The position numbers and the translations under genes are program-made. Source: a virus. From it: a stretch of DNA of 64,000 nt. A model generated the notes under the pieces. It ran no database searches, was not told where the DNA came from, and saw only the letters and a list, made by a program, of their open reading frames with translations. The stretch spans positions 1 to 64,000 of IMG/VR virus record IMGVR_UViG_3300043425_001190. One strand, 5' to 3'. Positions 40,401 to 59,062 of this stretch are shown one piece after another; the first letter of the stretch is position 1; every line of letters starts with the position of its first letter.

Positions 40401-40793
40401 GTAGTCATAGCCTGATGAACCAGAAACAGTGACGTTGGTTGCGGTAGTAACCGACTGTTCTGAAACAGCAGTGGTGTAGTAGTTGAACATTTTTAATAGG
40501 TCAGACTGTACGGTGCCGGTGATATCCAACGATTCAAACCCACAGGTGTCAAAGTTGGTAACGCCAATCGATCTGGCAATAATCGGCAAAAATCTGACGT
40601 CACACTGTTCGGTGTCGGAGACATTTTTAACATGTCCGGACGTCACGGCGTAGATGTCATTGAACTGACCTTCGATGGCTTCGATCAGTTTGAAAATGTC
40701 AGAGTTGGCCGGCACATGCTTCGGTATGATTTCCCGGAAGAAGTTGGCGAATCCGGTGAAAGTTCTGTTAGTGCTTTCCATGACTGACTCCAT
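37416..40793 (-). CDS. large baseplate wedge protein (gp7-like)
   Basis: follows gp6; LP.IA..IG, KGS..AI..LF and C-terminal VKPA motifs of wedge proteins. Confidence 0.6.
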   Translation of the reverse strand: MESVMESTNRTFTGFANFFREIIPKHVPANSDIFKLIEAIEGQFNDIYAVTSGHVKNVSDTEQCDVRFLPIIARSIGVTNFDTCGFESLDITGTVQSDLLKMFNYYTTAVSEQSVTTATNVTVSGSSGYDYSSSIVADMINNGDLVLEAEAIVPTSAAYTIGCETDVVSDGVKTIYELITSYIVDGGDDLTDDGVIAAQILGLEFPVASTGGEKYAIFEDRLVYIINKTKWHRKFLMLTVIRMQNKGSKRAIELLFRDYILREMTDYGNNNVGISAVQGAYNFYGRGQTQDVVNNGFDVEVVDLADPWNYFSGDEAAFLNPIVEEPGLNDVYNRYRSKHEMPEYADSDLAWQKTIKDLIIPFVDPYAGSDTGFVVTGSPFDEAVVDGQYTGHPSYPYPVDRYQNGYGTASHMWTSAYADADIGVSGTPSLDGRHGVEIATIGNDTISTTKGYHRYRSVGVDKVSWDAMPEPSYEEAIKLGIEGIYANYSDFVSNTRGTAATLQNALDQFEVDDTYHYFTFNNQGVLKYLFDEEVSGSDDIYNDFQERIPYLTNEEATGENHICPTPRNGEWGSTAASAYQHHPIKQFDSDAFGNKYILTCNLFNVTGDGIVASGTESGYFNTPSSGVLLMKNEEAGSNIGIWVLPAITYGGNNLQGMISDVAVVSDSLMITTFNKQVYFYKLGSNGPISGGAQSTGAREFVCGRVDNESNGYTFVTKLGNQYQYQLYRPENHVWATLCSNTVTGSVVACDVFPSTYPGFALVTGPSPNYYVSRCSQKYGNAVEDLPAWITPAVVGFVGLVVNQVNGDGILMFNVADNDTLYSGLDDYTTAILLKKLVTAPTMDYANESEYDFTYKYYQYNGVGINGAGSVEKEQSFKSQRLKVIDFTINDELLALIMAPVPKLVDTFSGDGVTPMPIDTFAYWDDANNMGMSGTTSGGYTFTDLDNGTTNHYFNLACFINLGSDVDYLTNEIKYNATSLKNMFTFTNDTSYYLPESMVSGGLVNTRRYYRAKLYDSLYFILYDTNASFKHPLVERVAKWYFYNEKARKSGLFDIKIKNFGFSSELSGDSVDPLPGTEKYEMKRHIEATIKEMVEYVKPATSVLRNIVWVNPTESIPPTSSGACLL

Positions 40794-42694
40794 TAGTATT
40801 CTACGAACCCGATACTATCTACTGTGTTGGTAGCAACGTTGATGTTGTTAATGGAGTATGCCCCAGGAACCACTTCGGCAGTTGATAGACGGTAGAACTC
40901 AAATTTAGCAAGACGTTTGTCAAAGTTGATGATTTCGCTGTTTGGTGGTGGCACCAGATTGTAATCACCTGAGGTAAACAAAGCGTTGTTGCCAGTGACG
41001 TCACCGGCAGTGAAGTTTCTTCCCTTCTTGACCACAATACTCATATACTCAATCCGTTCAACCCCAGGGATTCCAAGGATTTTGGTCTTCATGTCAGAGA
41101 AGTTGATGGTACCACCAAGTTTGGCGTTGGCGAAAGATAGCGAGTCACGAATGATGGCATCGATGCTGCTGTTGATCTGGGTGATTGAAACAAGCGAGGC
41201 CGGGTTTTTCTTCACCGAAACGTATGGAATGCAGTTCACGTACACCGGGTCTGTAATAATAACTTCGGCGGTGGCGGCCTTAATATCTTTAATTTTGCGA
41301 ACGATGCGTTCAACCACCGGGTGTGTTACATACTGGCCAACAGACGGAACCGAGACAACGTAGATGTTGTTGGTATCGCACGAATCCATTTGTAGAACGT
41401 TGGATTCAGAGAACCGTAGTTTACCGATAGTGAACACCGATTTTGGGTCTTCGATGCCGTAACCACCGGTATCGTAATACTGGGCCATGTAGGTGGTCAT
41501 GTATTCCCAGTTGTTCATCGGGTATGAGTCGTGGAGAACAGAAGAGAAGTTGGCGTCGAAGTATGCGGCGTAGTCACCGATAGAGTTTAGCGATCCCTGG
41601 GTGCTGAAGGTCTTTGGAGCGTTTGATCTGATCTCTGAAACGGTTTCTGGCAGACCACCAAGAGATGATTGTTCAGGCTGCGATACCATCAGCTTGATTG
41701 GGTCCAGGGTTGTTTCAATTTCAGTTTTTATGAAATCAGATGACGCAACCGGGTATGTGATTCCGTTAATATCAACGTAGTGTGGCAACGACGGACCGGT
41801 GGCAACTTCATGGTACCTGGAGTCAAGCTCGTTGATAGTATTGGTTCCAGTTAAGAATCCTGGTCCGATCTTACCAAACAAATGGTCGGATACTAACCGG
41901 TAAACCTTAATGGCCTGGTCGCCGATCTTTGGAATAGCCCCGTTTACCCCGTCGCCGAAGGTTACTTCGTATTGTCTATACTCGTTGAGCCGGACTTCAA
42001 ACACCTGGTCCTCGGGGCCGGCAAGGTAAAGCGAATCGGTTCTCGCCCATTGTTCGTATTTGGCTGTAAGACCGTTGTAAACGTAAACATCAACAAAGCC
42101 ATCGCCGATCTTTTTACCGGTTGATGGTTGTACAAGTTTGATTTTTTGTAAAGCAGATCCGTTGGACGCCGAATTGATTCTTTCATAATACCCGTTAACC
42201 AATGATAAACGTTTGGTGAAGGTGAATTTTACCCCATCTGGGAGGTCCACGCCATCATCACCGAAGCTGAAATATATGTCTTCAAAAGTTGAATAGTATA
42301 AATCATCACCAGTGGAGACGTTCTTGGCTGTGGATTTGAAACTGGTGTAGCGTGGGATAACCAGGGTTGGGCTGATATTACTATCTGATAGATAGACGGT
42401 AAGATCACAATCTACTAGCGGGGCGATGTGACCCTTTGGGATGTATGATAGTGTCTTGGCTAGGGCCACGGCGTTTTCATACATCTTAGTTTTGTCTAGG
42501 TGGCTTTCCGATGCGGCGGCATTGCTCATGTAGCCAAGTAATTCTACACCATACGAAATCTGTCTCAGTAGCGATGACAGATAACTGCCTTCGCTGTTGT
42601 TGTCTCTGAAGGTGTCGCTATCAGCGACATCCGACCGCATTTTAGCCAGGATTTGATCGAAGTCCTGGTTAAGCATTTTAATGTCGTTGGCCAT
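40793..42694 (-). CDS. gp6: baseplate wedge subunit
   Basis: DFDQI..F.D.N.EGS.LS.LL, LA..L.Y.P, FGDGVNG.IP, GG..ET..EIR..AP..F..Q....DY. Confidence 0.9.
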   Translation of the reverse strand: MANDIKMLNQDFDQILAKMRSDVADSDTFRDNNSEGSYLSSLLRQISYGVELLGYMSNAAASESHLDKTKMYENAVALAKTLSYIPKGHIAPLVDCDLTVYLSDSNISPTLVIPRYTSFKSTAKNVSTGDDLYYSTFEDIYFSFGDDGVDLPDGVKFTFTKRLSLVNGYYERINSASNGSALQKIKLVQPSTGKKIGDGFVDVYVYNGLTAKYEQWARTDSLYLAGPEDQVFEVRLNEYRQYEVTFGDGVNGAIPKIGDQAIKVYRLVSDHLFGKIGPGFLTGTNTINELDSRYHEVATGPSLPHYVDINGITYPVASSDFIKTEIETTLDPIKLMVSQPEQSSLGGLPETVSEIRSNAPKTFSTQGSLNSIGDYAAYFDANFSSVLHDSYPMNNWEYMTTYMAQYYDTGGYGIEDPKSVFTIGKLRFSESNVLQMDSCDTNNIYVVSVPSVGQYVTHPVVERIVRKIKDIKAATAEVIITDPVYVNCIPYVSVKKNPASLVSITQINSSIDAIIRDSLSFANAKLGGTINFSDMKTKILGIPGVERIEYMSIVVKKGRNFTAGDVTGNNALFTSGDYNLVPPPNSEIINFDKRLAKFEFYRLSTAEVVPGAYSINNINVATNTVDSIGFVEY

Positions 42695-42733: not shown

Positions 42734-43204
42734 TTACGCTTTGCTGATCGAAATGCCGCTTATTGAAACGTCCCTGTTCAACGCTCTGACAGTAACTTTG
42801 ATGTCAATCAACCACCGGTTTCCATTAATGTCGGGGAACACGGATATGTTTGGTGCCGATACCCTTTTCTCCCATCTGGTGATGGCGTCTTTGATGGTTG
42901 CCCCTAAAATAGAAGCGTTGGCATCACTTACGACCATTTTGAAAATATACTGGTCTAGGTCGCACCCAAACTCTGGAAGGTGCACCATCTCACCAGGTTT
43001 AGTATATAGGATGTTCATGATAGAACGAATCACCGCACGTTCATCTTTAAGTGTCTCTATATCACCAGTTGGGTTGAACTTGCCCATGTTAATCATGTCA
43101 AGGTCCGACCAGGTAACGTCGACCGACTGCGGGTCTTTGGCCGATGAGGCGGTTGGGTCGGTTACTACATATCTAATGTTTACCGAGCTTAAATCGTATC
43201 TCAT
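42734..43204 (-). CDS. gp25: baseplate wedge / sheath initiator
   Basis: SI.NIL.T.PGE....PEFGC.L..Y.F...I..AI.RWE.RV. Confidence 0.9.
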   Translation of the reverse strand: MRYDLSSVNIRYVVTDPTASSAKDPQSVDVTWSDLDMINMGKFNPTGDIETLKDERAVIRSIMNILYTKPGEMVHLPEFGCDLDQYIFKMVVSDANASILGATIKDAITRWEKRVSAPNISVFPDINGNRWLIDIKVTVRALNRDVSISGISISKA

Positions 43205-44064
43205 GATGGTACTTCTGGGGTTGGTGGTGGTGGAACCGGTACAATCGGAGCTCCGGTGGGAACTGGTGGGCCACCAACCCCAGGTCCACCAGAGTTAAGG
43301 TGGGTGTGGGAGTTTACAGATCCGTGTACTGACGTGATGATATCTAGAGCACTTACCGTTGCTGGGGTGATTATAGGCCCTAGCACGGTTAGGCTACCTA
43401 CGACCCAAACGTTGCCAGTAATCACCTGTATGGGTGCGGTAATATGTTTACTGGCGGCGTTCTCGACCACATCACCGACAACAGTAGATTCGCTTGACCC
43501 GCCAACGTACTCATGTAGGTTTCCAGCAGTGGTATCTTTTCTTTTACCGGTAGATTTAAGATGAACACCAGACTTGCTCATTTTGATGTACGATTTGTTC
43601 TTGTGCGTAAACTGTATTCTTTCCTCTCCCGGCGTGCCATCGTACTCTACCGAGCATCCGCCAAACCCAACAACCGAGTTATCTGGATATTTGGCGGCAT
43701 ACTCTGAGTCGGATTCTTTACCAAGCTTAACCAGGTCTTCTGAGATTTCGCGAGCCAGAGAGTGCCAGTCAGGTACATCGTTTTCTATACACGATCTAGA
43801 CCCGTCGTATATTGGGTGGCTAAGACTGCCGTTATCAAAGTATAGTGTGACTATTGTTCCAACTCGCGGAACCGAGAACATACCAGAGTTGGCACCACCA
43901 CCTAGGAAGGTCGGGGTCTTCTGGTAAGCCCATGGCAACCCGTCAGGGTTTAACTCTGTTGACTGATCAGACAACCCTGGAACATAAATGCGGACACGGC
44001 CGGTCTTTAACGGGTCTTTGTTGTCGACAACCTTTCCAGTATAATAACCGTGATGGCGCATCAT
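43201..44064 (-). CDS. gp5: baseplate central spike (gp5/gpV-like, no lysozyme domain)
   Basis: GKVVDNKDP...GRVR...LPWA...VP.VG..V...F..G....P OB fold; D.TPG.ERI...H; C-terminal HTH apex motif. Confidence 0.85.
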   Translation of the reverse strand: MMRHHGYYTGKVVDNKDPLKTGRVRIYVPGLSDQSTELNPDGLPWAYQKTPTFLGGGANSGMFSVPRVGTIVTLYFDNGSLSHPIYDGSRSCIENDVPDWHSLAREISEDLVKLGKESDSEYAAKYPDNSVVGFGGCSVEYDGTPGEERIQFTHKNKSYIKMSKSGVHLKSTGKRKDTTAGNLHEYVGGSSESTVVGDVVENAASKHITAPIQVITGNVWVVGSLTVLGPIITPATVSALDIITSVHGSVNSHTHLNSGGPGVGGPPVPTGAPIVPVPPPPTPEVPS

Positions 44065-49015: not shown

Positions 49016-49272
49016 TTTATCATCCTGTTAATCTCTGATGTGTCGTATGACTGCGCTGGCTCGTCATCTCCCTGGCCGGTATTTACCCCATCCTCTTTCG
49101 CCTTCTTTATCTCGTCAATGTGTTTATCCACATAATAGTTGATGTCGTTTAGCGAGGTTCGGTAAAACCCAGCTAACGGTTGGTTGAACTCTTTCATAAA
49201 AAGATAAGATACATCAAGCAGATATGCTATCTCTTGGTATATGGCGTCGAGGTCTCCTAACCTTAACGCCAC
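48994..49272 (-). CDS. baseplate hub assembly / tape-measure chaperone (gp51-like)
   Basis: size and position after gp26; Y.......L..E.......YY....I..I pattern. Confidence 0.5.
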   Translation of the reverse strand: MALRLGDLDAIYQEIAYLLDVSYLFMKEFNQPLAGFYRTSLNDINYYVDKHIDEIKKAKEDGVNTGQGDDEPAQSYDTSEINRMIKCPTQPQ

Positions 49273-50096
49273 ACCACAAAAAAATCCTTATCCAACAAAT
49301 TAGAGATCACCTTGTACTTGTTAGTGCACGATTCACATGTGACGTCGTTTACCTTCACCAGCTTTGAAATCTCCTTTGATATGTTGGCAATATTCATCTC
49401 GGAGATCCGGTTTACCACGATGTTTGGCAACGACAGCATAACCTTAATTTTATCAGCGAGAGGTCTACCATCAAAACTCATACTAACCTCACCGATTTTA
49501 ATTGCCGAAATGGTGGATGCCATAATCAACACGTTTTTGACCTGGTCGATATCCTCCTTACTCATGTCACCGAACGCCTTTTTGTCGGCAAAATAACTGG
49601 CAATGTAAGACTCTAGGTTTTTATTGATTTCTTTTACGTCACCGTATAGAGGGTGGTTTACGTCAACTGAAATCCTACCACACTCAGCATGCATCGGGTA
49701 TTCAACTTCGGCAATGGCCGAGTAGTATGCCTGCATTACCCCGTCAACAATCATGTCGATTTTAAGCTGATTTGGGTTCTTGCAAACGGGACACTCGCTA
49801 GTCATGTTGATCTCTGGACCATAAGCCGTTACTCTGGTGTGGGCCAAAAGGAAACTTACGTCCCAATCCGGTAGCGCATTAATATCAATTGACTGGTCGA
49901 CTAATGTTCTCTTGACCAAATCAACACTTCGTTCAACTTTTTTTGATGAGTCGGCTGATACCGACTTTAAGGTATCAAGTCTGTGTTTAGCTGTAATATC
50001 TCTAGTTTTGATTTCAAGTTTCGATACCGGAAGCTTAACTTCATGTGCAAAGTCGTCTGACTCCATAGCGGCCAAAAGGTCTTTAATATCCGACAT
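49263..50096 (-). CDS. gp26: baseplate hub assembly chaperone
   Basis: LP.S...I..R..T.K, L...D..FLL...R...YG..I.....CPVC, C-terminal CESC...DFF. Confidence 0.8.
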   Translation of the reverse strand: MSDIKDLLAAMESDDFAHEVKLPVSKLEIKTRDITAKHRLDTLKSVSADSSKKVERSVDLVKRTLVDQSIDINALPDWDVSFLLAHTRVTAYGPEINMTSECPVCKNPNQLKIDMIVDGVMQAYYSAIAEVEYPMHAECGRISVDVNHPLYGDVKEINKNLESYIASYFADKKAFGDMSKEDIDQVKNVLIMASTISAIKIGEVSMSFDGRPLADKIKVMLSLPNIVVNRISEMNIANISKEISKLVKVNDVTCESCTNKYKVISNLLDKDFFVVWR

Positions 50097-50124: not shown

Positions 50125-51720
50125 TTACCGCAGAGATAGAATTTCGTCAACCTCTTTTTCTACCTCTTTGAGCTCCGCCAATGAGAAAGGCGCTGTATAC
50201 GCTCCACCAACCCTTTTCTGTTGCGCAGAGGTGAAGTGCCCTATTAGCTCTCCTACGTCGAGACCGGTTTCCTTCCATCCAACAAGGTAGTTGAACAGTT
50301 TGTCTCTAACAGGGTTAGGGAATGTGTGGTTGCCAACACGTTTAAACCTGTGAACCCATCTTATCCATGGTAGGCACATTACTTTATGTCCAGCGTTACG
50401 GTATTTCTGGTGGATATATCCTTCCTCACCACCCCACGATCTAAAATGCTTGCTGAAGCCAGGCCATGATCTTTTGGCCGCCATAAACAGACCCATTCCA
50501 TGCATCGGAATCTCAAACGGGATGTTGTCACGCCTTGTTTTCTCCGTCCATTTTCCAAAGAACAGTTCGTTCCATACAGGATCCATATGGCTAGCCCAGT
50601 CGTTTCCCATATGATCAACCAGTATGCCATGATATAGGTCATCGGTTATTGGTTCTAGCAGAAATTGTTGTAATTTGTCAGCCCCGTCTGGGTTCAGTAA
50701 AACATGGCAATCAATCACCAGAACATAATCGCTTGTCGCCAGGTTAAACAGCTCGCTACGAATTGATGTGGACTTCTTTTCGGTGTGGGTAATATATCTG
50801 ACAACGCCGCCACCTAGGGTTGCCGTCAATTTACCATCTTCACTATCTGGGTTATTATCTAAAATAATAACTTCGTTTATCAACTTTTTGAACGGTCCGT
50901 TCATCAATGATGCCAACGAAAAGAAGACACCCTGATAATCATCATAGCACGCCATACCAACAGTAAGAGTGGCCTGCCGTATTGTCTTTGGCTCTTTAAA
51001 TTTTCTGACTTTATTATACTGGTCAGAGTTATTGGTATTGTTAACCAGGTCGTTTAGGCATACACGGCCAGATTTTATGGACCCGTTGTCCATAGCCGAT
51101 TTGACAGTACTCTTTATTCTTTGCTCCCGGCCTTCGATATCGCCAAACACTGAGGCGCTGTATATGTTGCTACCAACCCGGTAAACAAGAAGACCTTCGG
51201 TCAGCGGTTTAAAACGTTTAACTCTAGAACCACTTTCCATCTTCGTTCTGGTGGTTTGGTCAAAGTCGTACTGGTGGGTGTTGAACGAGTATCCTCCCCT
51301 TTCAACAAGAGTCTTCTTATTATACATCACCCAGTTTGGGGCGGTAGACTCGGTGATACTATGGATGTTGCCAGCGTTTTGCAAGCAATACCCATGCGGA
51401 GATACCACATCATATTCGGCTGTCTTAATAATTGCCTCATAGGACCCCAGTACCCACGGCATCCAAACATCGTCATCATCAAGAACCGTTACATATTCGC
51501 CAGTTGTATACCCGACAGCTATATTATGGGCGTCTGGAAGATTTGGTCTAAAATCTAGGTTATACACTTTAATGTTATCGTACCCATCTAAAACTAGATG
51601 CTGATCAACATTGGTGTTTAGTATTACTAACTCGGAGTTTATTACATTCTGGTCTAGGAAAGATCGTATAGTTTCCGGAAGTGAAACCCTGCCGTACACC
51701 ACACATATGACGGATATCAT
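50125..51720 (-). CDS. two-domain GT-A fold glycosyltransferase
   Basis: domain 1: ISVI...YGR..L...I.SFL.Q...LDDDD (GT2); domain 2: IDCH, GMGLF, WGGEEG, P...W.HRF.R. Confidence 0.85.
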   Translation of the reverse strand: MISVICVVYGRVSLPETIRSFLDQNVINSELVILNTNVDQHLVLDGYDNIKVYNLDFRPNLPDAHNIAVGYTTGEYVTVLDDDDVWMPWVLGSYEAIIKTAEYDVVSPHGYCLQNAGNIHSITESTAPNWVMYNKKTLVERGGYSFNTHQYDFDQTTRTKMESGSRVKRFKPLTEGLLVYRVGSNIYSASVFGDIEGREQRIKSTVKSAMDNGSIKSGRVCLNDLVNNTNNSDQYNKVRKFKEPKTIRQATLTVGMACYDDYQGVFFSLASLMNGPFKKLINEVIILDNNPDSEDGKLTATLGGGVVRYITHTEKKSTSIRSELFNLATSDYVLVIDCHVLLNPDGADKLQQFLLEPITDDLYHGILVDHMGNDWASHMDPVWNELFFGKWTEKTRRDNIPFEIPMHGMGLFMAAKRSWPGFSKHFRSWGGEEGYIHQKYRNAGHKVMCLPWIRWVHRFKRVGNHTFPNPVRDKLFNYLVGWKETGLDVGELIGHFTSAQQKRVGGAYTAPFSLAELKEVEKEVDEILSLR

Positions 51721-52547
51721 AAGGTCACAGTCAGGGTTACTGAGTTATCATAATCGCCGTTAAACAGCATGTTTGATGAACCAATCGGTACCACAAAACT
51801 TGACATTTGGCCACCTTGAGCACCAGGTAACGCCGGGTATGCTGGGTACATATAGAACTCACCAATATGTACAGTTACCGTGTACGTGTCCCAGTTAATG
51901 GTAAACCCAAAGGTTCCGGCCTCTAGGTTACCAGTGTCATACTGGTATGTTCCGTTACTGACGGTTGATACCGCCACCGATCCCGATGTTGAGAAGGCCG
52001 ACGCTGGCGCGTACCCTGGACTATATGAAAACGAGAACATAATCGGCGAGGATCTTGGCTGTAAAGGTGGCTCCGTTGTCACAGGTGGCGGCTCGGTAGT
52101 GACAGGTGGCGGCTCCGTTGTCACAGGTGGCGGCTCGGTAGTGACAGGTGGCGGTTCAGTAGTGACAGGTGGCGGCTCCGTTGTCACAGGTGGCGGCTCG
52201 GTAGTGACAGGTGGCGGCTCGGTAGTGACAGGTGGCGGCTCGGTAGTGACAGGTGGCGGCTCGGTAGTGACAGGTGGCGGCTCAGTAGTGACAGGTGGCG
52301 GCTCGGTAGTGACAGGTGGCGGCTCGGTAGTGACAGGTGGCGGCGGAGGTTTTGGCCTACTAGATACAGCTCCACCCTGACTTGGTATATCGTTATTGTC
52401 GGATTTGACGGCCGATAGAAGCCACCTTCTGTCAGAGATTGCCTTCTGCATTACACCCTGTAAAGAAGACGAAACGGTAGTTTCGCTGGCCAAACGGCTG
52501 AGCGGGGTTGATCTCTGTGTTGGTCCGTTGCCGTACGCTCTTAGCAT
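51717..52547 (-). CDS. Pro/Thr-rich mucin-like repeat protein (276 aa, start MLRAYG)
   Basis: AAGGA RBS; 13 x PPPVTTE; stop overlaps the glycosyltransferase ATG (ATGA). Confidence 0.8.
   Translation of the reverse strand: MLRAYGNGPTQRSTPLSRLASETTVSSSLQGVMQKAISDRRWLLSAVKSDNNDIPSQGGAVSSRPKPPPPPVTTEPPPVTTEPPPVTTEPPPVTTEPPPVTTEPPPVTTEPPPVTTEPPPVTTEPPPVTTEPPPVTTEPPPVTTEPPPVTTEPPPVTTEPPLQPRSSPIMFSFSYSPGYAPASAFSTSGSVAVSTVSNGTYQYDTGNLEAGTFGFTINWDTYTVTVHIGEFYMYPAYPALPGAQGGQMSSFVVPIGSSNMLFNGDYDNSVTLTVTL
52071..52343 (-). repeat. 13 x 21-bp coding tandem repeat
   Basis: units ctc(g/c)gt(a/t)gt(g/c)acaggtggcgg on +; differences are synonymous in the PPPVTTE frame. Confidence 0.95.
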
Positions 52548-52557
52548 ATTATGTCCT

Positions 52558-54069
52558 TTAGAATTGGTACCATGATGGCTGTGGTGGGGCTTCTGATATG
52601 GTACTGGTGGTTTTGGTTTGATCAAATGACGTGCCGCCAGCATCATACGCAGCGCTAGTATACTCACCAGAAGGTGTTGGCGGTGCAGTAAATGGCGACT
52701 TAACCGATTCCCATGCTGACGAGGCACCATCAGATACCTTGTCGCCAACGTAACCAGCACCGTCTGAAACAGCGCCTCCGGCTGACCGTACAGCACCGCC
52801 AACTGACTTACCAAACACCCCGGTGTTATTTTCTAAACCGGTGAACACTTTAGCCCCATATTCACCAAGACCGGCACCTTGGTTATATATTCCCTCAGCT
52901 GAGTTCATTACTGCGCCCATGTTATCAAGGGTTAGACCACCATTTTTGATGCCGTCTACAGTGCTTTTGACTGTTTTAATAAGATCTTTGGCTTTATTGA
53001 CCTCGTTCTTGACGTCGCTATACACTTTTATGCCACGACGAACGTCTGTAATAGCGTCCCTAAACCCATAAGGTTTTGATCCAACCGGGTTTTCTGGTGT
53101 AATGCCAGGAAGAGGGGTTGTCTTTGGGATAAACTTAAATTTGTCTTGCGCCAACTTACCAAGGCCAGGTTTCTTTTTAGTAGATGACACAGATGTGGTT
53201 GATGTAGTCTTAGCCTCACGTTGAACGGCCACCCTGCGGTATGAAATACCAACACTGAAGGTTGATAACTCTTCGGTAGTGTAGTCTAAATCTTCACCGG
53301 AAATTGATTCAACCTGCGATCCGTAGTATTTGTATGTCACAACGTTCTCGCCGTTAAAAGAATAACGGTTAATAGTGATGATAGCCTGGTTGTTGAATGA
53401 GTTACCAATTTGTTCGATATTTGCCGTATTATTGGCAATGTTGTCAACCACATTGTAATCGGTATTTCTTCTTGATGCCATGGTATATAACGCTTGACGC
53501 AAGATGCCGGCTGAATCATCTAGAAAGTCTATTTTTAGGTTTTCTACCGTAACACCGGTAGGGACTTTAACCGGTAGACTGTTTATAGACGGTTTTATCT
53601 CCATAAACTGAGTTGTCGTGCCAGGTATGTTGACGGACCTGACAAAAATCTCGGCTGCTTCACCAGAAATTTCTATAGTAGACTCAGTTTTTACGCCACC
53701 TGTGCTGGCATAGACATCATCAATAATACCAGCAAACTGTCCACCAAATTTGACTGTCCACAGGTACTTTGGTGTTGGAGCTACAGCCGAGGTTTCTGAC
53801 CCACGAACAACAAGAGAGTAATACTTTGACATCAAATCTTTTAGCTGGGCTTTACCACCAGCAGATGTTGAGAACCTGTTGATTTCCTCGTCTGGTGTAG
53901 GCTCCATGTACGCAGGTTCACTGAACTCAGCCGGTAACTTAACCTCTTCTCCCCAGCCAATTTTACCAGGCGGCAGGAACTCCTCTGGTGTGATCCGTTT
54001 ATGCTTATTGCTCAGACCCTTTGCTGGGACTGATCCAAAAATGTCTTCTGCCGAGTCAAGTATTCCCAT
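52558..54069 (-). CDS. tail-tube-fold baseplate protein (gp54-like) with long low-complexity C-terminus
   Basis: V.SVNIPG, L.I.F.DD, Y...G.....I....LDY......TF.V...Y tube-fold pattern. Confidence 0.55.
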   Translation of the reverse strand: MGILDSAEDIFGSVPAKGLSNKHKRITPEEFLPPGKIGWGEEVKLPAEFSEPAYMEPTPDEEINRFSTSAGGKAQLKDLMSKYYSLVVRGSETSAVAPTPKYLWTVKFGGQFAGIIDDVYASTGGVKTESTIEISGEAAEIFVRSVNIPGTTTQFMEIKPSINSLPVKVPTGVTVENLKIDFLDDSAGILRQALYTMASRRNTDYNVVDNIANNTANIEQIGNSFNNQAIITINRYSFNGENVVTYKYYGSQVESISGEDLDYTTEELSTFSVGISYRRVAVQREAKTTSTTSVSSTKKKPGLGKLAQDKFKFIPKTTPLPGITPENPVGSKPYGFRDAITDVRRGIKVYSDVKNEVNKAKDLIKTVKSTVDGIKNGGLTLDNMGAVMNSAEGIYNQGAGLGEYGAKVFTGLENNTGVFGKSVGGAVRSAGGAVSDGAGYVGDKVSDGASSAWESVKSPFTAPPTPSGEYTSAAYDAGGTSFDQTKTTSTISEAPPQPSWYQF

Positions 54070-56094: not shown

Positions 56095-56607
56095 TTAAAC
56101 GACGAAGTCCCAGTACTGGTATTCGAATGTAACGTCCATAGTAGCGACGTTTTCACCAGATTCCTGTGACAGAGTAACCTCACCTAGGCCAGTAGGGTAC
56201 ATACCCTCGAACTTAATCTTTTTAGTTGGGTTCAACTTATTGTCGAGGAGAGTTAGGGTGACTGTTTCGAGACGGGAGAAGGTCTCGCTGGCACCCGTGT
56301 TGATGTCGTAGATTTCGCTCATCCAGTCGGATACGAATTTGCGCAAATCATAACGCATGTCGCAACGAAGTTGAACACCCCAGCTCTCGAACGAGGCGGT
56401 ACCTGGCATCTTGAACTTGAAACCAAGGAACGGAGTCGCGATGGTGCCAATGGCTTTGGTGGGCCATTTGGTGGAGAAGACATAAAGTTCGGCTTCATCA
56501 CCAAGACGCGATGGGAATGTCACTCTGAACAGGTGACCGCGAGCCAAGTCAGTCTTTTTGATCTGCTGATAAAAGCCGGAAACCTTGTAGCTATCGGATA
56601 TGGCCAT
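56095..56607 (-). CDS. gp19: tail tube protein
   Basis: LAR..LF.V.F, P...IG.I..PF.G.....PG...F..W, F...W...I, YPT.LG...L.......T..VTF.Y.YW. Confidence 0.9.
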   Translation of the reverse strand: MAISDSYKVSGFYQQIKKTDLARGHLFRVTFPSRLGDEAELYVFSTKWPTKAIGTIATPFLGFKFKMPGTASFESWGVQLRCDMRYDLRKFVSDWMSEIYDINTGASETFSRLETVTLTLLDNKLNPTKKIKFEGMYPTGLGEVTLSQESGENVATMDVTFEYQYWDFVV

Positions 56608-56692: not shown

Positions 56693-59062
56693 TTAGCCTT
56701 TCTGGCGGATAACCTCGGTGAGGTTGGCCCCGACTCTTGAGGCGATCATGTTGATGATGATGAATTCACCGGTTCTGGCGGCGTCGAGGGCGAGGTCAAC
56801 CACCAGTTCGTTCTTTTCCAGAACTTCCGGGGTGTTGTTCGTCTCATCGCAGACGAGAAGGAAGTCGTTGAGACCCTCCTTCGACTTGGCGTAATCAAGC
56901 AGAGGCTTGATAGCGTCGACCACTCTGGTGCGTGTTGGATAAGTGTTGTTCTTGAAGACGAAGCGGTACATGATACGCGAAATGCGCTTTTCCAGTACCA
57001 GGAACAGCAGGCGGACGTTGATCCGGCTGAAGGCCGAGGTAGTGGTAAGCAGAGTCTTCTGACCCCAAACGATGGTGCCATAGGCGGGCAGGTTGATGAT
57101 GTTGTTGATGCCACGCTTGTACAGGACACCTTGCGAGTCCGGGGTGGGGTTGATTGCGAGCTGAAGGGCACCGGGGATGGTAGCTCTGTCGATACCAGCG
57201 GGGGCGAACCAGGGCTCTTCTTGCTTCGACATCTTACCAATGACAGCGGCCACTTTGGACGAGACTGGGTGCCAGTATTGACCTTTATTGTAACGGTCGC
57301 GCATCTTCACCCAGTTTCCGTAAACGGCGAGGTAGCTGGAAGCTAGGACACCCTGGCTGTAGCTGCCGCAATCGCGGTTGAACCGGTCGTTCAAGACCTT
57401 GTCAAGGCAATCGTTGTAGCTGACACCATCAGAACCGCTCTCGTCGCCAACAATGTATTTTTCAACGCGACCGGGCATTGCTTCGCCCATACCGACCTGT
57501 CCGGAGACAACGTATTGACGGGGAATGTCGATGAGGACAAGCACGTCTTTACGGGTCAGGTTGGCGAAGTTGTGGTATTGGTCGATGATGTTGTCGTAGT
57601 TGGTGGTGTTGAACGTACTGCCAAGGACGATGTGGTTGGTGAATTCATACATACGGTCCATGGCGTAGGTTGGGCCGTAGTACGAACCGCTGGGGCTGAG
57701 GCTGGTGGCGTTGGTAGCACCGGCAATGGTTGATAGGCCAGCGTCGACAAGCAAGTCAAGGGGAACTTGCTGCGGGTTGGCGATCTTTGGCATGGCCAGA
57801 ACGAGTTTGGCGTTGACGTCACCGATGATCATGTTTTCACGTGACATTTTGGAGTGGGACAAGCTGTAGGTGCGGTTACCATCACCGAGTGGAGAAACCT
57901 TCACGGAGGTGGGGCTGATGACCTCGGTGACCAGGTGGGTGGCCAGAGTGACACCGTAAGCTCTCTTGTAGGTGCCACCATCGTTGTACACTTTGTCTTG
58001 TACAACTAGGTTGTTGCCGGTGACGGTGGTGGAGTTGGCGATGGTTGGTTTCTTCTGAATGACGATACCATCCGAGAAGTGAGCCCAGTCGGTGAGGTCG
58101 TCGGCGGTGGAGCTGCGGCCAGTGTAAGCGCGGATTCTGGTTGAGTTGTTGTTGATGACGTCTTCGATGAAGAGGGTGTTGCCGTAGCTGTCAGTCTTGG
58201 CGGGGTCGAGAGAAACATCATAGCGTTCAACGATGGTCATGGTACCACGGTCGGCCTGGAATTGCGAAGAGGCGTTGTAACGGAACAGGATGACACTGAT
58301 GCTGTCTTTCGACATGACGTTCTGGATGCCGGCCCAGGCGGCAGACGAAACCGACTTGATGTCAACGTCAACGATTTTGGAGTTGTCGTATTCACCGTAG
58401 ATGGCGGCGCTGTTGACGTATGGAACGGTGTCGGCTAACCAGGTGGGGCGGGTAGCCGGGGTTGCAGCGGTGAACGAGTCGATGATGGCCAAGTAGAGGT
58501 CGCCGTCGCCGTTTGGGGCGTTGTCGACGCTGCGGTTGACGAACAGGATATCTCCAATGCCGATTTGGCCGAGGGTGCCACCAAGAGAGGTGGTTCTGTC
58601 ACCAGCGGCTAGGGCGGTGAGCTCGGTATCGGTGATGGTAGCCTGGGTACCGTCCATGGCGTTGGTGCCGGTAATGACTGAGCTGAGAACGGTGTAGTTG
58701 CCGGCAGCAAGACCATAGTCTGCACTGACACCACTTGAGGGGGCTGCGAAGGTCATTTTGAAGGCTGAGTGCTTGATCTCATCAGCATCACCGTAGGGGA
58801 GACGGACGCCGATCACAGCACCAGTTTCGTTGACAACATCAATGAGTGAGTGTACGAAGTAACGTTCGGCTTCGTTGGTGGGCTGACCCCAGTTACTAAC
58901 GACTTCCTCCTGGGTGGTAGCAACCATCGGCTCAAGAGAACGGCCTTTCTGTGAGAAACCAAAGGCCACGCCAACCGTGCTTTCTTGAACGGTGGCCGGA
59001 ACTTCCGACATATCAATCTCGTTAATGATAACGCCCGGGGCGTTCTTTGCGTTGTTGGCCAT
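56693..59062 (-). CDS. gp18: contractile tail sheath protein
   Basis: PGV.I.EID.S, PWFAPAG..R, LY..GIN, WGQKTL.....AFSRINVR.L, F..N...TR, VCDETNNTP. Confidence 0.95.
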   Translation of the reverse strand: MANNAKNAPGVIINEIDMSEVPATVQESTVGVAFGFSQKGRSLEPMVATTQEEVVSNWGQPTNEAERYFVHSLIDVVNETGAVIGVRLPYGDADEIKHSAFKMTFAAPSSGVSADYGLAAGNYTVLSSVITGTNAMDGTQATITDTELTALAAGDRTTSLGGTLGQIGIGDILFVNRSVDNAPNGDGDLYLAIIDSFTAATPATRPTWLADTVPYVNSAAIYGEYDNSKIVDVDIKSVSSAAWAGIQNVMSKDSISVILFRYNASSQFQADRGTMTIVERYDVSLDPAKTDSYGNTLFIEDVINNNSTRIRAYTGRSSTADDLTDWAHFSDGIVIQKKPTIANSTTVTGNNLVVQDKVYNDGGTYKRAYGVTLATHLVTEVISPTSVKVSPLGDGNRTYSLSHSKMSRENMIIGDVNAKLVLAMPKIANPQQVPLDLLVDAGLSTIAGATNATSLSPSGSYYGPTYAMDRMYEFTNHIVLGSTFNTTNYDNIIDQYHNFANLTRKDVLVLIDIPRQYVVSGQVGMGEAMPGRVEKYIVGDESGSDGVSYNDCLDKVLNDRFNRDCGSYSQGVLASSYLAVYGNWVKMRDRYNKGQYWHPVSSKVAAVIGKMSKQEEPWFAPAGIDRATIPGALQLAINPTPDSQGVLYKRGINNIINLPAYGTIVWGQKTLLTTTSAFSRINVRLLFLVLEKRISRIMYRFVFKNNTYPTRTRVVDAIKPLLDYAKSKEGLNDFLLVCDETNNTPEVLEKNELVVDLALDAARTGEFIIINMIASRVGANLTEVIRQKG

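What the first reader, a model, noticed from the sequence alone, without database searches (positions are those of the whole stretch)
50125..52547. Candidate phage mucin system: (PPPVTTE)x13 protein coupled to a ppGalNAc-T-like double glycosyltransferase in the tail operon
Seen: between the gp54-like and gp26 genes, a protein with 13 perfect PPPVTTE repeats (26 Thr) overlaps by ATGA with a 531-aa enzyme made of two GT-A domains. The repeats separate an N-terminal region from a beta-rich C-terminal domain. Domain 2 of the enzyme has IDCH, PMHGMGLF, WGGEEG and CLP...VHRFKR. Known: eukaryotic polypeptide GalNAc-transferases (GT27), which start mucin-type O-glycosylation on Thr in Pro-rich peptides, carry DxH, AGGLF, WGGEN and PCS.VGH.FR in this order; virion glycosylation has been shown for some mycobacteriophages. 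Inference: domain 2 primes the Thr pairs and the GT2-type domain 1 extends them, giving a glycosylated stalk on the virion for shielding, adhesion or receptor reach. This would be a self-contained enzyme-substrate pair.
Basis: partly seen in the sequence, partly recalled or inferred. Interest (0 to 1): 0.88.

Follow-up and report, generated by a model that had tools for sequence, protein, structure and literature searches.

The report
Phage mucin-like repeat protein with glycosyltransferase
An uncultured freshwater T4-like phage carries, inside its tail genes, a protein with thirteen PPPVTTE repeats followed by a two-part enzyme, one part shaped like the animal enzymes that start mucin sugar coats; it probably sugar-coats this protein, but no sugar has been measured.

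Summary
A 276-aa protein (51717-52547, minus strand) has 13 perfect PPPVTTE units. It overlaps by ATGA a 531-aa enzyme (50125-51720) made of two GT-A domains. Both genes sit between a tube-fold protein and a gp26-like hub gene.

- **Fold:** the model of domain 2 (pLDDT 89.8) matches only polypeptide GalNAc-transferases (GT27) in every listed Foldseek row to rank 49. VIA-align gives Z 22.1 and 21.5 for GT27, against 17.6 for the next family. The DxH, WGGE and downstream His motifs are invariant in the family.
- **Linkage:** relatives of domain 2 sit directly behind Thr/Ser/Pro-rich genes in 21 of 53 dereplicated viral loci, against 12 of 753 other ORFs. The same positional bias appears in bacterial and metagenome loci.

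Domain 1 is an ordinary GT2-type domain. Its family recurs next to the GT27-like gene and is fused to it once more, in the opposite order.

Not shown: any sugar, the donor, which domain acts first, or a place in the virion. The repeat number cannot be confirmed, because contigs from other runs break at the repeat.

This scan has noted the same pairing on other DNA (63 notes). Six paper searches found no paper on it.

The parts
51717..52547 (-). Repeat protein gene (276 aa plus stop): 68-aa N-terminal part, 13 PPPVTTE units, 117-aa C-terminal domain
   Evidence: frame supported by codon usage and by the independent 199-aa gene call P0127 with the same start
52554..52558 (-). AAGGA ribosome-binding site, 6 nt before the ATG; it overlaps the stop codon (52558-52560) of the upstream gene
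   Evidence: read directly from the sequence
52344..52547 (-). N-terminal 68 aa, Ser-rich, with no detectable relatives
   Evidence: no Pfam family even at E<=10
52071..52343 (-). 13 perfect PPPVTTE heptads (aa 69-159; 39 Pro, 26 Thr); proposed O-glycosylation target
   Evidence: copy number unverified; a 2-unit variant exists in another assembly
51720..52070 (-). C-terminal 117-aa domain. It is 60% identical to the N-terminal domain of P0121, a 343-aa protein that carries poly-Thr linkers. It is distantly like a module repeated 10-15 times in giant bacterial surface proteins.
50125..51720 (-). Two-domain glycosyltransferase gene (531 aa plus stop); its ATG overlaps the repeat gene's TGA (ATGA)
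50989..51720 (-). Domain 1 (aa 1-244): GT2-type GT-A. DDDD at aa 81-84 (nt 51469-51480). Poorly modelled stretch at aa 183-215.
   Evidence: Pfam GT2 43.6 bits; model pLDDT 78.0; Foldseek best matches are 6p61, WrtF, RmlT, TarP and SpsA; family alignment A2 has DDDD invariant
50128..50988 (-). Domain 2 (aa 245-531): GT27-like GT-A. DxH at D337/H339 (nt 50704-50712), WGGEEG at 429-434 (nt 50419-50436), H457 (nt 50350-50352).
   Evidence: model pLDDT 89.8; Foldseek and VIA-align top matches are GT27; invariant residues; aligned to GalNAc-T2
52558..54069 (-). Upstream neighbour: 503-aa tube-fold protein (gp48/gp54-like)
   Evidence: PHROG 4542 E 6e-7; Pfam gp19 E 0.0036, below its cutoff
49263..50096 (-). 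Downstream neighbour: gp26-like baseplate hub protein
   Evidence: Pfam PF12322 E 3.8e-11; PHROG 150 E 4.1e-13

Best explanation
The two genes are an enzyme-substrate cassette inserted in the tail-tube and baseplate-hub gene block of a freshwater T4-like phage.

Proposed mechanism, inferred throughout: late in infection, in the host cytoplasm, domain 2 transfers a first sugar from a host nucleotide sugar to the Thr pairs of the PPPVTTE heptads. Domain 2 is a GT-A domain built like the catalytic domain of polypeptide GalNAc-transferases, with a DxH...H metal site. The fused GT2-type domain 1 (DDDD motif) then adds at least one further sugar.

The expected product is a stiff, extended, mucin-like glycosylated spacer of 91 residues. 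That is roughly 23-28 nm if it is extended; the per-residue rise is recalled. The spacer would hold the adhesin-like C-terminal domain away from the N-terminal part, which probably docks on the tail or baseplate.

Shown here: the genes, the motifs, the folds and the recurrent gene linkage.

Inferred: the glycosylation itself, the donor, the order in which the two domains act, and a place in the virion.
For: **1. Fold.** Every listed Foldseek row to rank 49 is a ppGalNAc-T (best 6nqt_E, E 5.6e-16, TMq 0.72). A Foldseek-independent search of 48,161 chains puts mouse GalNAc-T1 (Z 22.1, 260 aligned, rmsd 3.2) and Toxoplasma GalNAc-T3 (Z 21.5) first. B4GALNT1 follows at 17.6 and generic GT2 enzymes lie near 15.

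**2. Motifs.** IDCH, WGGEEG and VHRFKR align with LDSH, WGGENL and GHVFRK of human GalNAc-T2. D337, H339, E432, E433 and H457 are invariant in 31 family members.

**3. Linkage in viral loci.** Of 80 viral loci with a domain-2 relative, 79 have an upstream ORF. In 32 of those 79, the same-strand ORF ending next to the enzyme gene has at least 23 of 30 residues Pro, Thr or Ser. After dereplication at 90% enzyme identity this is 21 of 53, against 12 of 753 other ORFs in the same loci (odds ratio 40, Fisher p 4e-19).

**4. The same bias elsewhere.** In 80 bacterial loci, 21 of 28 strict poly-Thr tracts lie on the same strand within 3 kb upstream. In 80 metagenome loci, 21 tracts lie there against 4 elsewhere.

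**5. Diverse partners.** The 27 viral partner proteins plus the window's protein fall into 18 BLAST groups after the tracts are masked. The link is therefore to the tract, not to one protein family.

**6. The closest relative keeps the theme.** P0121 (60% identical C-domain) carries poly-Thr linkers. P0121 and the closest enzyme relative P0002 (52% identical) are both JGI proteins whose longest contig is 25,682 nt.

**7. Domain 1 family.** It is found in 11 of 80 viral, 7 of 80 bacterial and 9 of 80 metagenome loci. L212 carries a second fusion in the order domain 2 then domain 1.

**8. Single candidate substrate.** The repeat protein holds the only long Pro/Thr tract in a real gene of the 87-kb record.

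**9. Heptad spacing.** Both Thr of each heptad have Pro at +3 and at -3, read directly from the sequence. The GalNAc-T preference for Pro at these positions is recalled, not tested.
Against: - No biochemical or proteomic evidence exists.
- Sequence-level kinship with GT27 is marginal. phmmer gives E 0.013. The family profile retrieves only TarP, TarS, K4CP and a mannose synthase, and no GT27 chain at E<=1. Pfam Glyco_transf_7C scores 14.9 bits, below its cutoff of 23.
- In 32 of 53 dereplicated viral loci the immediate upstream gene is not Thr-rich, so the enzyme family does not always have such a neighbour.
- The loci are the best-scoring 80 of 519, 430 and 562 relatives and are related to each other, so the counts are not independent events.
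- The window's repeat protein shares nothing with the other partners apart from its composition. It lacks their C-terminal Cys motif.
- The JGI gene caller called only the 107-aa C-terminal part.
- The repeat number is unverified.
- Nothing shows that the protein is in the virion.
Confidence: 0.65

Rival explanations
1. The enzyme modifies something else: a host envelope polymer (LPS, teichoic acid, capsule) or another phage protein. The PPPVTTE stretch would then be an unglycosylated flexible or rigid Pro-rich linker that happens to be encoded next door.
For: The family profile's best solved relative by sequence is TarP, a prophage wall-teichoic-acid GlcNAc transferase (E 1.7e-6, N-terminal part only). 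The best fold matches of domain 1 act on polysaccharides or teichoic acids. In 32 of 53 dereplicated viral loci the upstream gene is not Thr-rich. Pro-rich linkers exist without glycans (general knowledge).
Against: Thr-rich genes lie directly upstream with a strong positional and strand bias in three separate collections. The whole-domain fold is clearly closer to the peptide-acting GT27 than to TarP or TarS (Z 22 against about 15). The genes have translational coupling by ATGA. The cassette sits inside the tail gene block rather than among host-takeover genes.
Confidence: 0.15
2. The pair works as proposed, but the glycoprotein is not a structural part of the particle. It could act inside the infected cell, be released at lysis as a decoy or matrix, or serve as an assembly factor.
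For: No homology to any known virion protein. T4 hub-region genes include non-structural assembly factors such as gp51 (recalled). The protein is small.
Against: The gene sits between a tube-fold protein and a hub protein in one co-directional, tightly packed block. Some partner proteins in other phages carry a beta-helix, a Gly-rich fibre domain or a tail-fibre-assembly PHROG. The C-domain resembles modules of bacterial surface proteins.
Confidence: 0.2
3. The repeat is not translated or is an assembly artefact. The real gene would be only the 107-aa C-terminal domain, as the JGI gene call has it.
For: The JGI call P0122 starts at the internal Met. The relative P0121 begins with this domain. 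Short-read contigs break at the repeat. A 21-nt unit without stops is open in several frames.
Against: The 68 codons before the repeat have the phage's codon usage in this frame only. The ATG follows an AAGGA that overlaps the upstream gene's stop, while the internal ATG has no such site. The repeat is an exact multiple of 3 and keeps the flanks in frame. The ENA call P0127 starts at the same Met and reads through 2 units. Otherwise about 500 nt of a packed operon would be non-coding.
Confidence: 0.05
4. The enzyme glycosylates phage DNA, as the T4 glucosyltransferases do.
For: The phage is T4-like (gp23, gp20, gp15, sheath and tube). Phage glycosyltransferases are often assumed to act on DNA (passages read in PMC12801897 and PMC12619734).
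Against: No fold match to a DNA glucosyltransferase appears among the listed rows. The gene lies in the late tail block, not among replication genes. The linkage to Thr-rich genes has no meaning for DNA modification.
Confidence: 0.03

Closest known systems
Eukaryotic polypeptide N-acetylgalactosaminyltransferases (CAZy GT27; e.g. human GalNAc-T2 6nqt/2ffu, mouse GalNAc-T1 8v9q, Toxoplasma GalNAc-T3 8uhv)
   Same: The GT-A catalytic fold of domain 2 is closest to these among all solved structures. The DxH, WGGE and downstream His motifs come in the same order and align. The genetically linked partner is a Pro/Thr-rich tandem-repeat protein, as mucins are. Pfam reads the domain as Glycos_transf_2 plus a weak Glyco_transf_7C; that GALNTs have this same Pfam make-up is recalled.
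   Different: There is no ricin-type lectin domain and no membrane anchor, so the enzyme is soluble and cytoplasmic. Sequence identity is 11-18% and sequence E-values are marginal. It is fused to a second GT-A domain. The donor sugar is unknown. 40 of 120 listed relatives carry an F5/8 type C (discoidin) domain instead of a lectin domain.
Virion glycosylation of mycobacteriophages (Freeman et al. 2023, Cell Host Microbe). The paper is not held. It was seen only as reference-list entries and as one describing passage in PMC12619734.
   Same: Phage-encoded glycosyltransferases are thought to modify the phage's own particle proteins, and their genes lie beside structural genes.
   Different: There the glycans sit on C-terminal extensions of the capsid and tail-tube subunits (passage in PMC12619734). 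Here the target is a separate tandem-repeat protein, and no other gene of the 87-kb record has such a tract. Whether the enzymes are homologous was not tested.
GT2-family GT-A enzymes (SpsA, TarP, TarS, RmlT, WrtF, Leptospira 6p61)
   Same: Domain 1 passes Pfam GT2, has an acidic DDDD (DxD-type) motif, and its model best matches these structures.
   Different: It is very divergent. No relative was found by word-based search among 111 candidates. Its only recognisable kin are the roughly 230-280-aa genes that accompany the GT27-like gene.
The same pairing noted earlier by this scan on other DNA (63 notes in at least 53 genomes; e.g. e1-5390742, e1-5830204, e1-3419084)
   Same: A GalNAc-T-like enzyme lies beside a Thr-rich, mucin-like gene in uncultured phages and in bacteria.
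   Different: Here the tract is a perfect Pro-rich heptad array rather than poly-Thr. The enzyme is fused to a second transferase. The cassette lies between tube-initiator and hub genes. The partner lacks the C-terminal Cys...CNKLGF tail seen in 16 of 27 partners.

Membership tests
CAZy GT27 (polypeptide GalNAc-transferase) | GT-A catalytic domain whose closest structural relatives are GT27 enzymes | tested here: met
   Foldseek: every listed row to rank 49 is a ppGalNAc-T, best E 5.6e-16. VIA-align: Z 22.1 and 21.5, against 17.6 for the next family. Model pLDDT 89.8.
CAZy GT27 (polypeptide GalNAc-transferase) | DxH metal motif plus a downstream His (D224/H226/H359 in human T2; residue numbers recalled) | tested here: met
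   D337-C-H339 and H457 align with LDSH and GHVFRK of GalNAc-T2 and are invariant in 31 relatives. Their geometry in the model could not be measured, because no coordinates were available.
CAZy GT27 (polypeptide GalNAc-transferase) | Gal/GalNAc-T motif (WGGE...) | tested here: met
   WGGEEG 429-434 aligns with WGGENL. G430, E432 and E433 are invariant. Pfam Glyco_transf_7C scores only 14.9 bits, below its cutoff of 23.
CAZy GT27 (polypeptide GalNAc-transferase) | Significant sequence similarity to family members | tested here: inconclusive
   phmmer E 0.013-0.15 to GalNAc-T2 and T10. The family profile A1 lists 6 chains at E<=1 and none is GT27.
CAZy GT27 (polypeptide GalNAc-transferase) | C-terminal ricin B-type lectin domain (present in most members) | tested here: not met
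   No such Pfam match, even at E<=10 for domain 2. The protein ends about 70 residues after the catalytic core.
CAZy GT27 (polypeptide GalNAc-transferase) | Type II membrane protein with an N-terminal anchor and stem | tested here: not met
   The Pfam GT2 match of domain 1 begins at residue 3, which leaves no room for an anchor. No transmembrane predictor was run.
CAZy GT27 (polypeptide GalNAc-transferase) | Transfers GalNAc from UDP-GalNAc to Ser/Thr of a polypeptide | not testable with these tools
   Needs an enzyme assay. Only gene linkage to Thr-rich proteins speaks for a peptide acceptor.
GT2-type GT-A (Pfam PF00535), domain 1 | Match to the family model above its curated cutoff | tested here: met
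   43.6 bits, cutoff 23.3, aa 3-111.
GT2-type GT-A (Pfam PF00535), domain 1 | Acidic DxD-type motif after the fourth strand, and an SpsA-like fold | tested here: met
   DDDD 81-84 is invariant in 14 sequences. Foldseek best matches are 6p61 (E 1.8e-14), WrtF, RmlT, TarP and SpsA. Model pLDDT 78.0, with aa 183-215 below 50.
Mycobacteriophage-type virion glycosylation | Glycan acceptor is a C-terminal extension of the capsid or tail-tube subunit | tested here: not met
   No other real gene of the 87-kb record has a Pro/Thr/Ser tract. The feature itself is taken from a passage in PMC12619734.
Mycobacteriophage-type virion glycosylation | Glycosyltransferase gene placed among structural genes | tested here: met
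   The cassette lies between tube-fold and hub genes. Sheath, tube, gp5-, gp25- and gp6-like genes are in the same block.

The most novel reading that the evidence does not exclude
Tailed phages and many bacteria have their own mucin-type protein O-glycosylation system. It would be built around a soluble enzyme family that is the prokaryotic and viral kin of the eukaryotic GT27 initiating enzymes. In this phage it would be fused with its extending GT2 partner into one polypeptide and would turn a perfect Pro/Thr heptad array into a glycosylated rod that forms part of the tail or baseplate. If so, mucin-type glycosylation is not a eukaryotic invention, and phage particles can carry self-made mucin-like glycoproteins.
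Probability: 0.4. Interest if true: 0.85.

Novelty: new variant of a known kind. Interest (0 to 1): 0.74.

Why it matters
Phage-encoded glycosylation of the phage's own proteins is known to me only from mycobacteriophages, and mucin-type O-glycosylation started by GT27 enzymes is treated as eukaryotic. Both statements are recalled. The second fits a 2012 review passage that describes the GalNAc pathway only in animals and apicomplexans.

This is a compact two-gene cassette with an obvious repetitive peptide substrate, so the idea can be tested directly. It needs only co-expression in E. coli, or a synthetic (PPPVTTE)n peptide with a panel of nucleotide sugars.

If it holds, three things follow:
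- It adds a new class of soluble peptide O-glycosyltransferases that could serve as glyco-engineering tools.
- It bears on where GT27 came from.
- It suggests that abundant freshwater and marine phages carry glycosylated mucin-like rods that could affect adsorption, particle stability or stickiness.

The family is widespread. The pattern scans confirmed 519 relatives in viral contigs and 430 in bacterial genomes (with family alignment A1 as query), and 562 in metagenome contigs (with relative P0002 as query). It has no tblastn match in 50,697 deposited phage records at E<=1e-5.

Tried and rejected
**Searches of deposited phage records.**
- tblastn with the enzyme and with the repeat protein against 50,697 phage records found no match.
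- Megablast of 16 kb of the window found no match.

**Structure and family searches.**
- The profile of the domain-2 family against solved structures gave only TarP, TarS, K4CP and a mannose synthase, over the N-terminal part. I therefore do not claim sequence membership in GT27.
- A word-based search for relatives of domain 1 alone found none among 111 candidates. Its family was instead built from genes in the fetched loci, so matches of those same genes to the model are by construction.
- The N- and C-terminal parts of the repeat protein have no relatives in the 80 viral loci.
- The Atlas look-up of the C-domain gave only unnamed viral clusters at 0.90-0.91 and weak SCPU and DUF4402 leads at 0.85-0.86. 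I treat these as chance-level.
- The Pfam Avidin hit (E 0.014) is ignored.
- P0124 and P0125 give many Pfam rows with zero stretches. These are artefacts of repetitive sequence and I ignore them.

**The closest relative's contig.**
- I could not fetch the 25,682-nt contig that probably holds both P0121 and P0002. The scans with P0121 found nothing. The scan with P0002 returned only more distant loci. Their adjacency therefore stays unproven.

**Strand and copy number.**
- The synonymous-only pattern of the repeat variants is rejected as evidence for the coding strand, because the antisense frame is equally silent.
- The repeat region alone even scores higher in a plus-strand frame (22.0 against 4.8).
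- Laying contigs of 4 runs did not bridge the repeat. The uncovered part says nothing about copy number.
- The RNA run X4 holds pieces of the cassette, but its library may contain DNA, so I do not claim transcription.

**Not used.**
- Complex prediction, because an enzyme with its substrate is a poor case for it.
- No supplementary files were consulted.

**Literature.** Six searches found no paper that describes a GT27-like phage enzyme paired with a Thr-rich protein. This covers only the held open-access library.


Full report
**What the window is.** The window is the first 64 kb of an 87,297-nt linear IMG/VR virus record, with CheckV completeness about 40%. Pfam scans of 95 of its ORFs find T4-type gp23, gp20 portal, gp15, terminase, prohead protease, sheath and tube. 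The 789-aa sheath protein matches 2,690 deposited phages, all below 60% identity. Megablast of 16 kb finds nothing. It is therefore a distant T4-like myovirus. Runs that hold the stretch are labelled freshwater metagenomes, and three of them carry the flanks without a single difference.

**The observation.**
- All genes from 37416 to 63674 that matter here run on the minus strand.
- ORF 51717-52547 starts at an ATG that lies 6 nt after an AAGGA overlapping the stop of the upstream gene. It encodes 276 aa.
- The protein has a Ser-rich 68-aa head, 13 perfect PPPVTTE units (aa 69-159; 39 Pro, 26 Thr, 13 Val, 13 Glu) and a 117-aa tail. TRF sees the array at 52069-52344.
- Five units differ at the DNA level and only silently. 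The antisense frame (GGSVVTG) is silent too, so this does not choose the strand.
- The frame is chosen by other evidence. The 68 codons before the array score +7.5 in this frame, against -22.3 and -19.6 on the same strand and -23.7, -0.8 and -32.0 on the other. This measure picks the true frame in 260 of 266 pieces of the phage's long ORFs.
- The array is a multiple of three and joins two in-frame flanks.
- An ENA gene call (P0127, 199 aa) starts at the same Met and reads through two units into the same tail, with four conservative changes.
- Against this, the JGI call for this record is only the last 107 aa (P0122).
- Short-read contigs end at 52024-52110 and resume at 52315. The number 13 therefore rests on the IMG/VR assembly alone, and the 2-unit form may be a collapsed repeat.
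- The TGA of this gene overlaps the ATG of the 531-aa enzyme gene at 50125-51720.

**The enzyme.** Each half passes Pfam GT2 on its own: aa 3-111 at 43.6 bits, and aa 254-416 of the whole protein at 36.8 bits, with a cutoff of 23.3.

*Domain 2 (aa 245-531).*
- It belongs to a large, well-conserved family. A word-based search gave 275 proteins at E<=0.001 among 3,870 candidates.
- The 119 listed relatives (the 120 rows less the query's own) cover 46-67% of the query, always the C-terminal half where checked. No listed protein has both halves.
- Of the 120 rows listed, 40 carry an F5/8 type C domain, 6 a GT25 domain, 4 TPR repeats, 4 a PqqD-like domain and 1 a 2OG-oxygenase domain (my count).
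- A 31-sequence alignment has D337, H339, E432, E433 and H457 invariant, among others.
- The AlphaFold model is confident: pLDDT 89.8, pTM 0.89.
- In Foldseek against the PDB, every listed row down to rank 49 is a polypeptide GalNAc-transferase: human T2, T4, T7, T10 and T12, mouse T1, fly PGANT9A and Toxoplasma T3. The best is E 5.6e-16 with TMq 0.72.
- A search that does not rely on Foldseek puts mouse T1 (Z 22.1, 260 residues, 3.2 A) and Toxoplasma T3 (Z 21.5) four to five Z units above B4GALNT1 (17.6) and K4CP (16.9), and further above the ordinary GT2 enzymes near 15.
- By sequence alone the link is weak. phmmer finds GalNAc-T2 and T10 first, but at E 0.013-0.04. That alignment pairs IDCH with LDSH, WGGEEG with WGGENL and VHRFKR with GHVFRK.
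- The family profile finds only TarP (E 1.7e-6, first 120 positions) and no GT27 chain at E<=1.
- My reading is 'built like GT27, with its metal and Gal/GalNAc-T motifs'. I do not read it as 'a member of GT27'. It also lacks the lectin domain and the membrane anchor.

*Domain 1 (aa 1-244).*
- It has DDDD at 81-84 and no close relatives.
- tblastn and an HMM find its family as separate genes of roughly 230-280 aa next to the GT27-like gene, in 11 of 80 viral, 7 of 80 bacterial and 9 of 80 metagenome loci. Some bacterial hits are weak and may be generic GT2.
- L212 carries a second fusion in the reverse order.
- Its model (pLDDT 78.0; aa 183-215 disordered) best matches an uncharacterised Leptospira transferase, WrtF, RmlT, TarP and SpsA. 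It is an ordinary GT2-type GT-A.

**The linkage test.** It was run before I looked at earlier notes of the scan.
- *Viral contigs.* The scan confirmed 519 relatives of domain 2 and kept the best 80. In 32 of the 79 loci with upstream sequence, the same-strand ORF that ends within a few bases of the enzyme gene has at least 23 of 30 residues Pro, Thr or Ser.
- *After dereplication.* With enzymes dereplicated at 90% identity this is 21 of 53 clusters, against 12 of 753 other ORFs of at least 100 aa in the representatives' loci (odds ratio 40, p 4e-19). Eight of those 12 lie within 2 kb of the enzyme gene.
- *Bacterial genomes.* The best 80 of 430 relatives were kept. Of 28 tracts with at least 15 Thr in 30 residues, 21 lie on the enzyme's strand within 3 kb upstream, 3 lie downstream on that strand and 4 lie on the other strand.
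- *Metagenome contigs.* The best 80 of 562 relatives of P0002 were kept. Twenty-one tracts lie within 3 kb upstream on the same strand, against 4 elsewhere. Nineteen of the 63 loci with enough upstream sequence have one.
- *Caveat.* These samples are top-scoring and related to each other, so they are not independent events.
- *Partner diversity.* The partners are very diverse. The 27 distinct viral partners range from 94 to 1,370 aa. Together with the window's protein they fall into 18 groups after the tracts are masked. Only a few have recognisable domains: a beta-helix, an InlB B-repeat, an FGE-sulfatase-like domain with a Gly-rich domain, and a tail-fibre-assembly PHROG.
- *Conclusion.* What is conserved is the Thr-rich tract next to the enzyme. 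That is what an enzyme-substrate relation predicts.

**This phage's substrate candidate.**
- The repeat protein holds the only long Pro/Thr tract in a real gene of the 87-kb record.
- Its C-domain has one close relative, P0121 (60% identity). There it forms the N-terminus and is followed by poly-Thr linkers.
- P0121 and the closest enzyme relative P0002 (52% identity; single GT27-like domain behind a Cys-rich head) are both JGI proteins whose longest contig is 25,682 nt. They are probably neighbours, but I could not fetch that contig.
- More distantly, the domain resembles a module repeated 10-15 times in bacterial proteins of 1,522-2,325 aa. One of these has 13 MBG_2 domains and a T9SS sorting tail, and another has a dockerin. 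This points to an adhesin-type module, but it is only a lead.
- Each Thr of the heptad has Pro at +3 and -3. This fits the recalled acceptor preference of GalNAc-transferases.
- Many partners elsewhere are pure poly-Thr, so the family as a whole cannot depend on Pro.

**Context and supply.**
- The cassette lies in this order: sheath (56693-59062), tube (56095-56607), three small genes, a 503-aa tube-fold protein (52558-54069), the repeat protein, the enzyme, a gp26-like hub (49263-50096), a 92-aa ORF and a 674-aa protein without family matches (a possible tape measure). Then come gp5-like (43201-44064), gp25-like (42734-43204) and gp6-like (40793-42694) genes.
- No other transferase and no sugar-nucleotide enzyme is found among 95 other ORFs at E<=1e-5. 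The donors must therefore come from the host, at least as far as this 40% of the genome shows.

**Conclusion.**
- The most likely reading (about 0.65) is a phage-encoded O-glycosylation cassette. The GT27-like domain would start glycans on the Thr pairs of the heptad array, and the fused GT2 domain would extend them. The product would be a mucin-like rod carrying an adhesin-like end domain, probably as part of the tail or baseplate.
- Shown here: the genes, the motifs, the folds and the linkage.
- Inferred: the sugar transfer, the donor, the order of the two domains and the location.

**Prior knowledge.**
- The scan has noted the same pairing on other DNA (63 notes in at least 53 genomes). I tested the general claim independently here.
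- Six literature searches found no paper on it.
- The papers I read in passages treat phage transferases as DNA- or host-surface-modifying, or cite only the mycobacteriophage case.
- I read passages of PMC12801897, PMC12619734 and PMC3417536. Freeman et al. 2023 itself was not available.

Noticed in passing
L013:7032-7493, L016:1693-2139, L025:9462-9992, L014:978-3419, L037:5984-6793 and others: 16 of 27 distinct Thr-rich partner proteins in other phages, from 94 to 814 aa, end in the same short tail: Cys, a few residues, then Cys-Asn-Lys-Leu-Gly-Phe/Tyr. Two more have a looser form. This may be a docking or recognition peptide. The window's protein lacks it.
   Followed up: partly
L212:2882-4489: A 536-aa metagenome protein fuses the same two transferase families in the opposite order: GT27-like first, then the DDDD GT2 domain.
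   Followed up: partly
window 52071-52343; proteins P0127, P0122, P0126: An ENA assembly encodes the same protein with only 2 PPPVTTE units and four conservative changes. JGI gene calls give only 107-aa and 86-aa C-terminal pieces. Short-read contigs of three runs stop at the repeat. Real copy-number variation and repeat collapse cannot be told apart.
   Followed up: partly
window 51500-52787 (run X4): A freshwater metatranscriptome run holds five error-free contig pieces of the cassette, including part of the repeat array and the start of the repeat gene. The library may contain DNA, so I do not claim transcription.
   Followed up: no
proteins P0003, P0043, P0068, P0119, P0022, P0023, P0033, P0037, P0120: Bacterial relatives of domain 2 are fused to PqqD-like (peptide-binding), TPR, GT25 and 2OG-oxygenase domains. 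40 of 120 listed relatives carry an F5/8 type C domain at the C-terminus, which may stand in for the lectin domain of GT27 enzymes.
   Followed up: no
window 52558-54069 (-): The 503-aa tube-fold protein just upstream has a short Ser/Thr run (TTSTTSVSST) and a Thr/Ser/Pro-rich C-terminal end. These might be minor acceptor sites for the same enzyme.
   Followed up: no
proteins P0123, P0124, P0125: The C-terminal domain of the repeat protein is distantly like a module of about 130 aa repeated 10-15 times in giant bacterial surface proteins. One has 13 MBG_2 domains and a T9SS sorting tail, and one has a dockerin.
   Followed up: partly
87-kb record (G000:C1); exact place not determined here: One of the 95 ORFs of the 87-kb record matches the Pfam adenosine deaminase family (E 1.1e-33) in the batch scan, which does not say which ORF it is. 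A scan note (e1-6121550) places such an enzyme 15,773 letters beyond the window's end. This is unusual in a T4-like phage.
   Followed up: no
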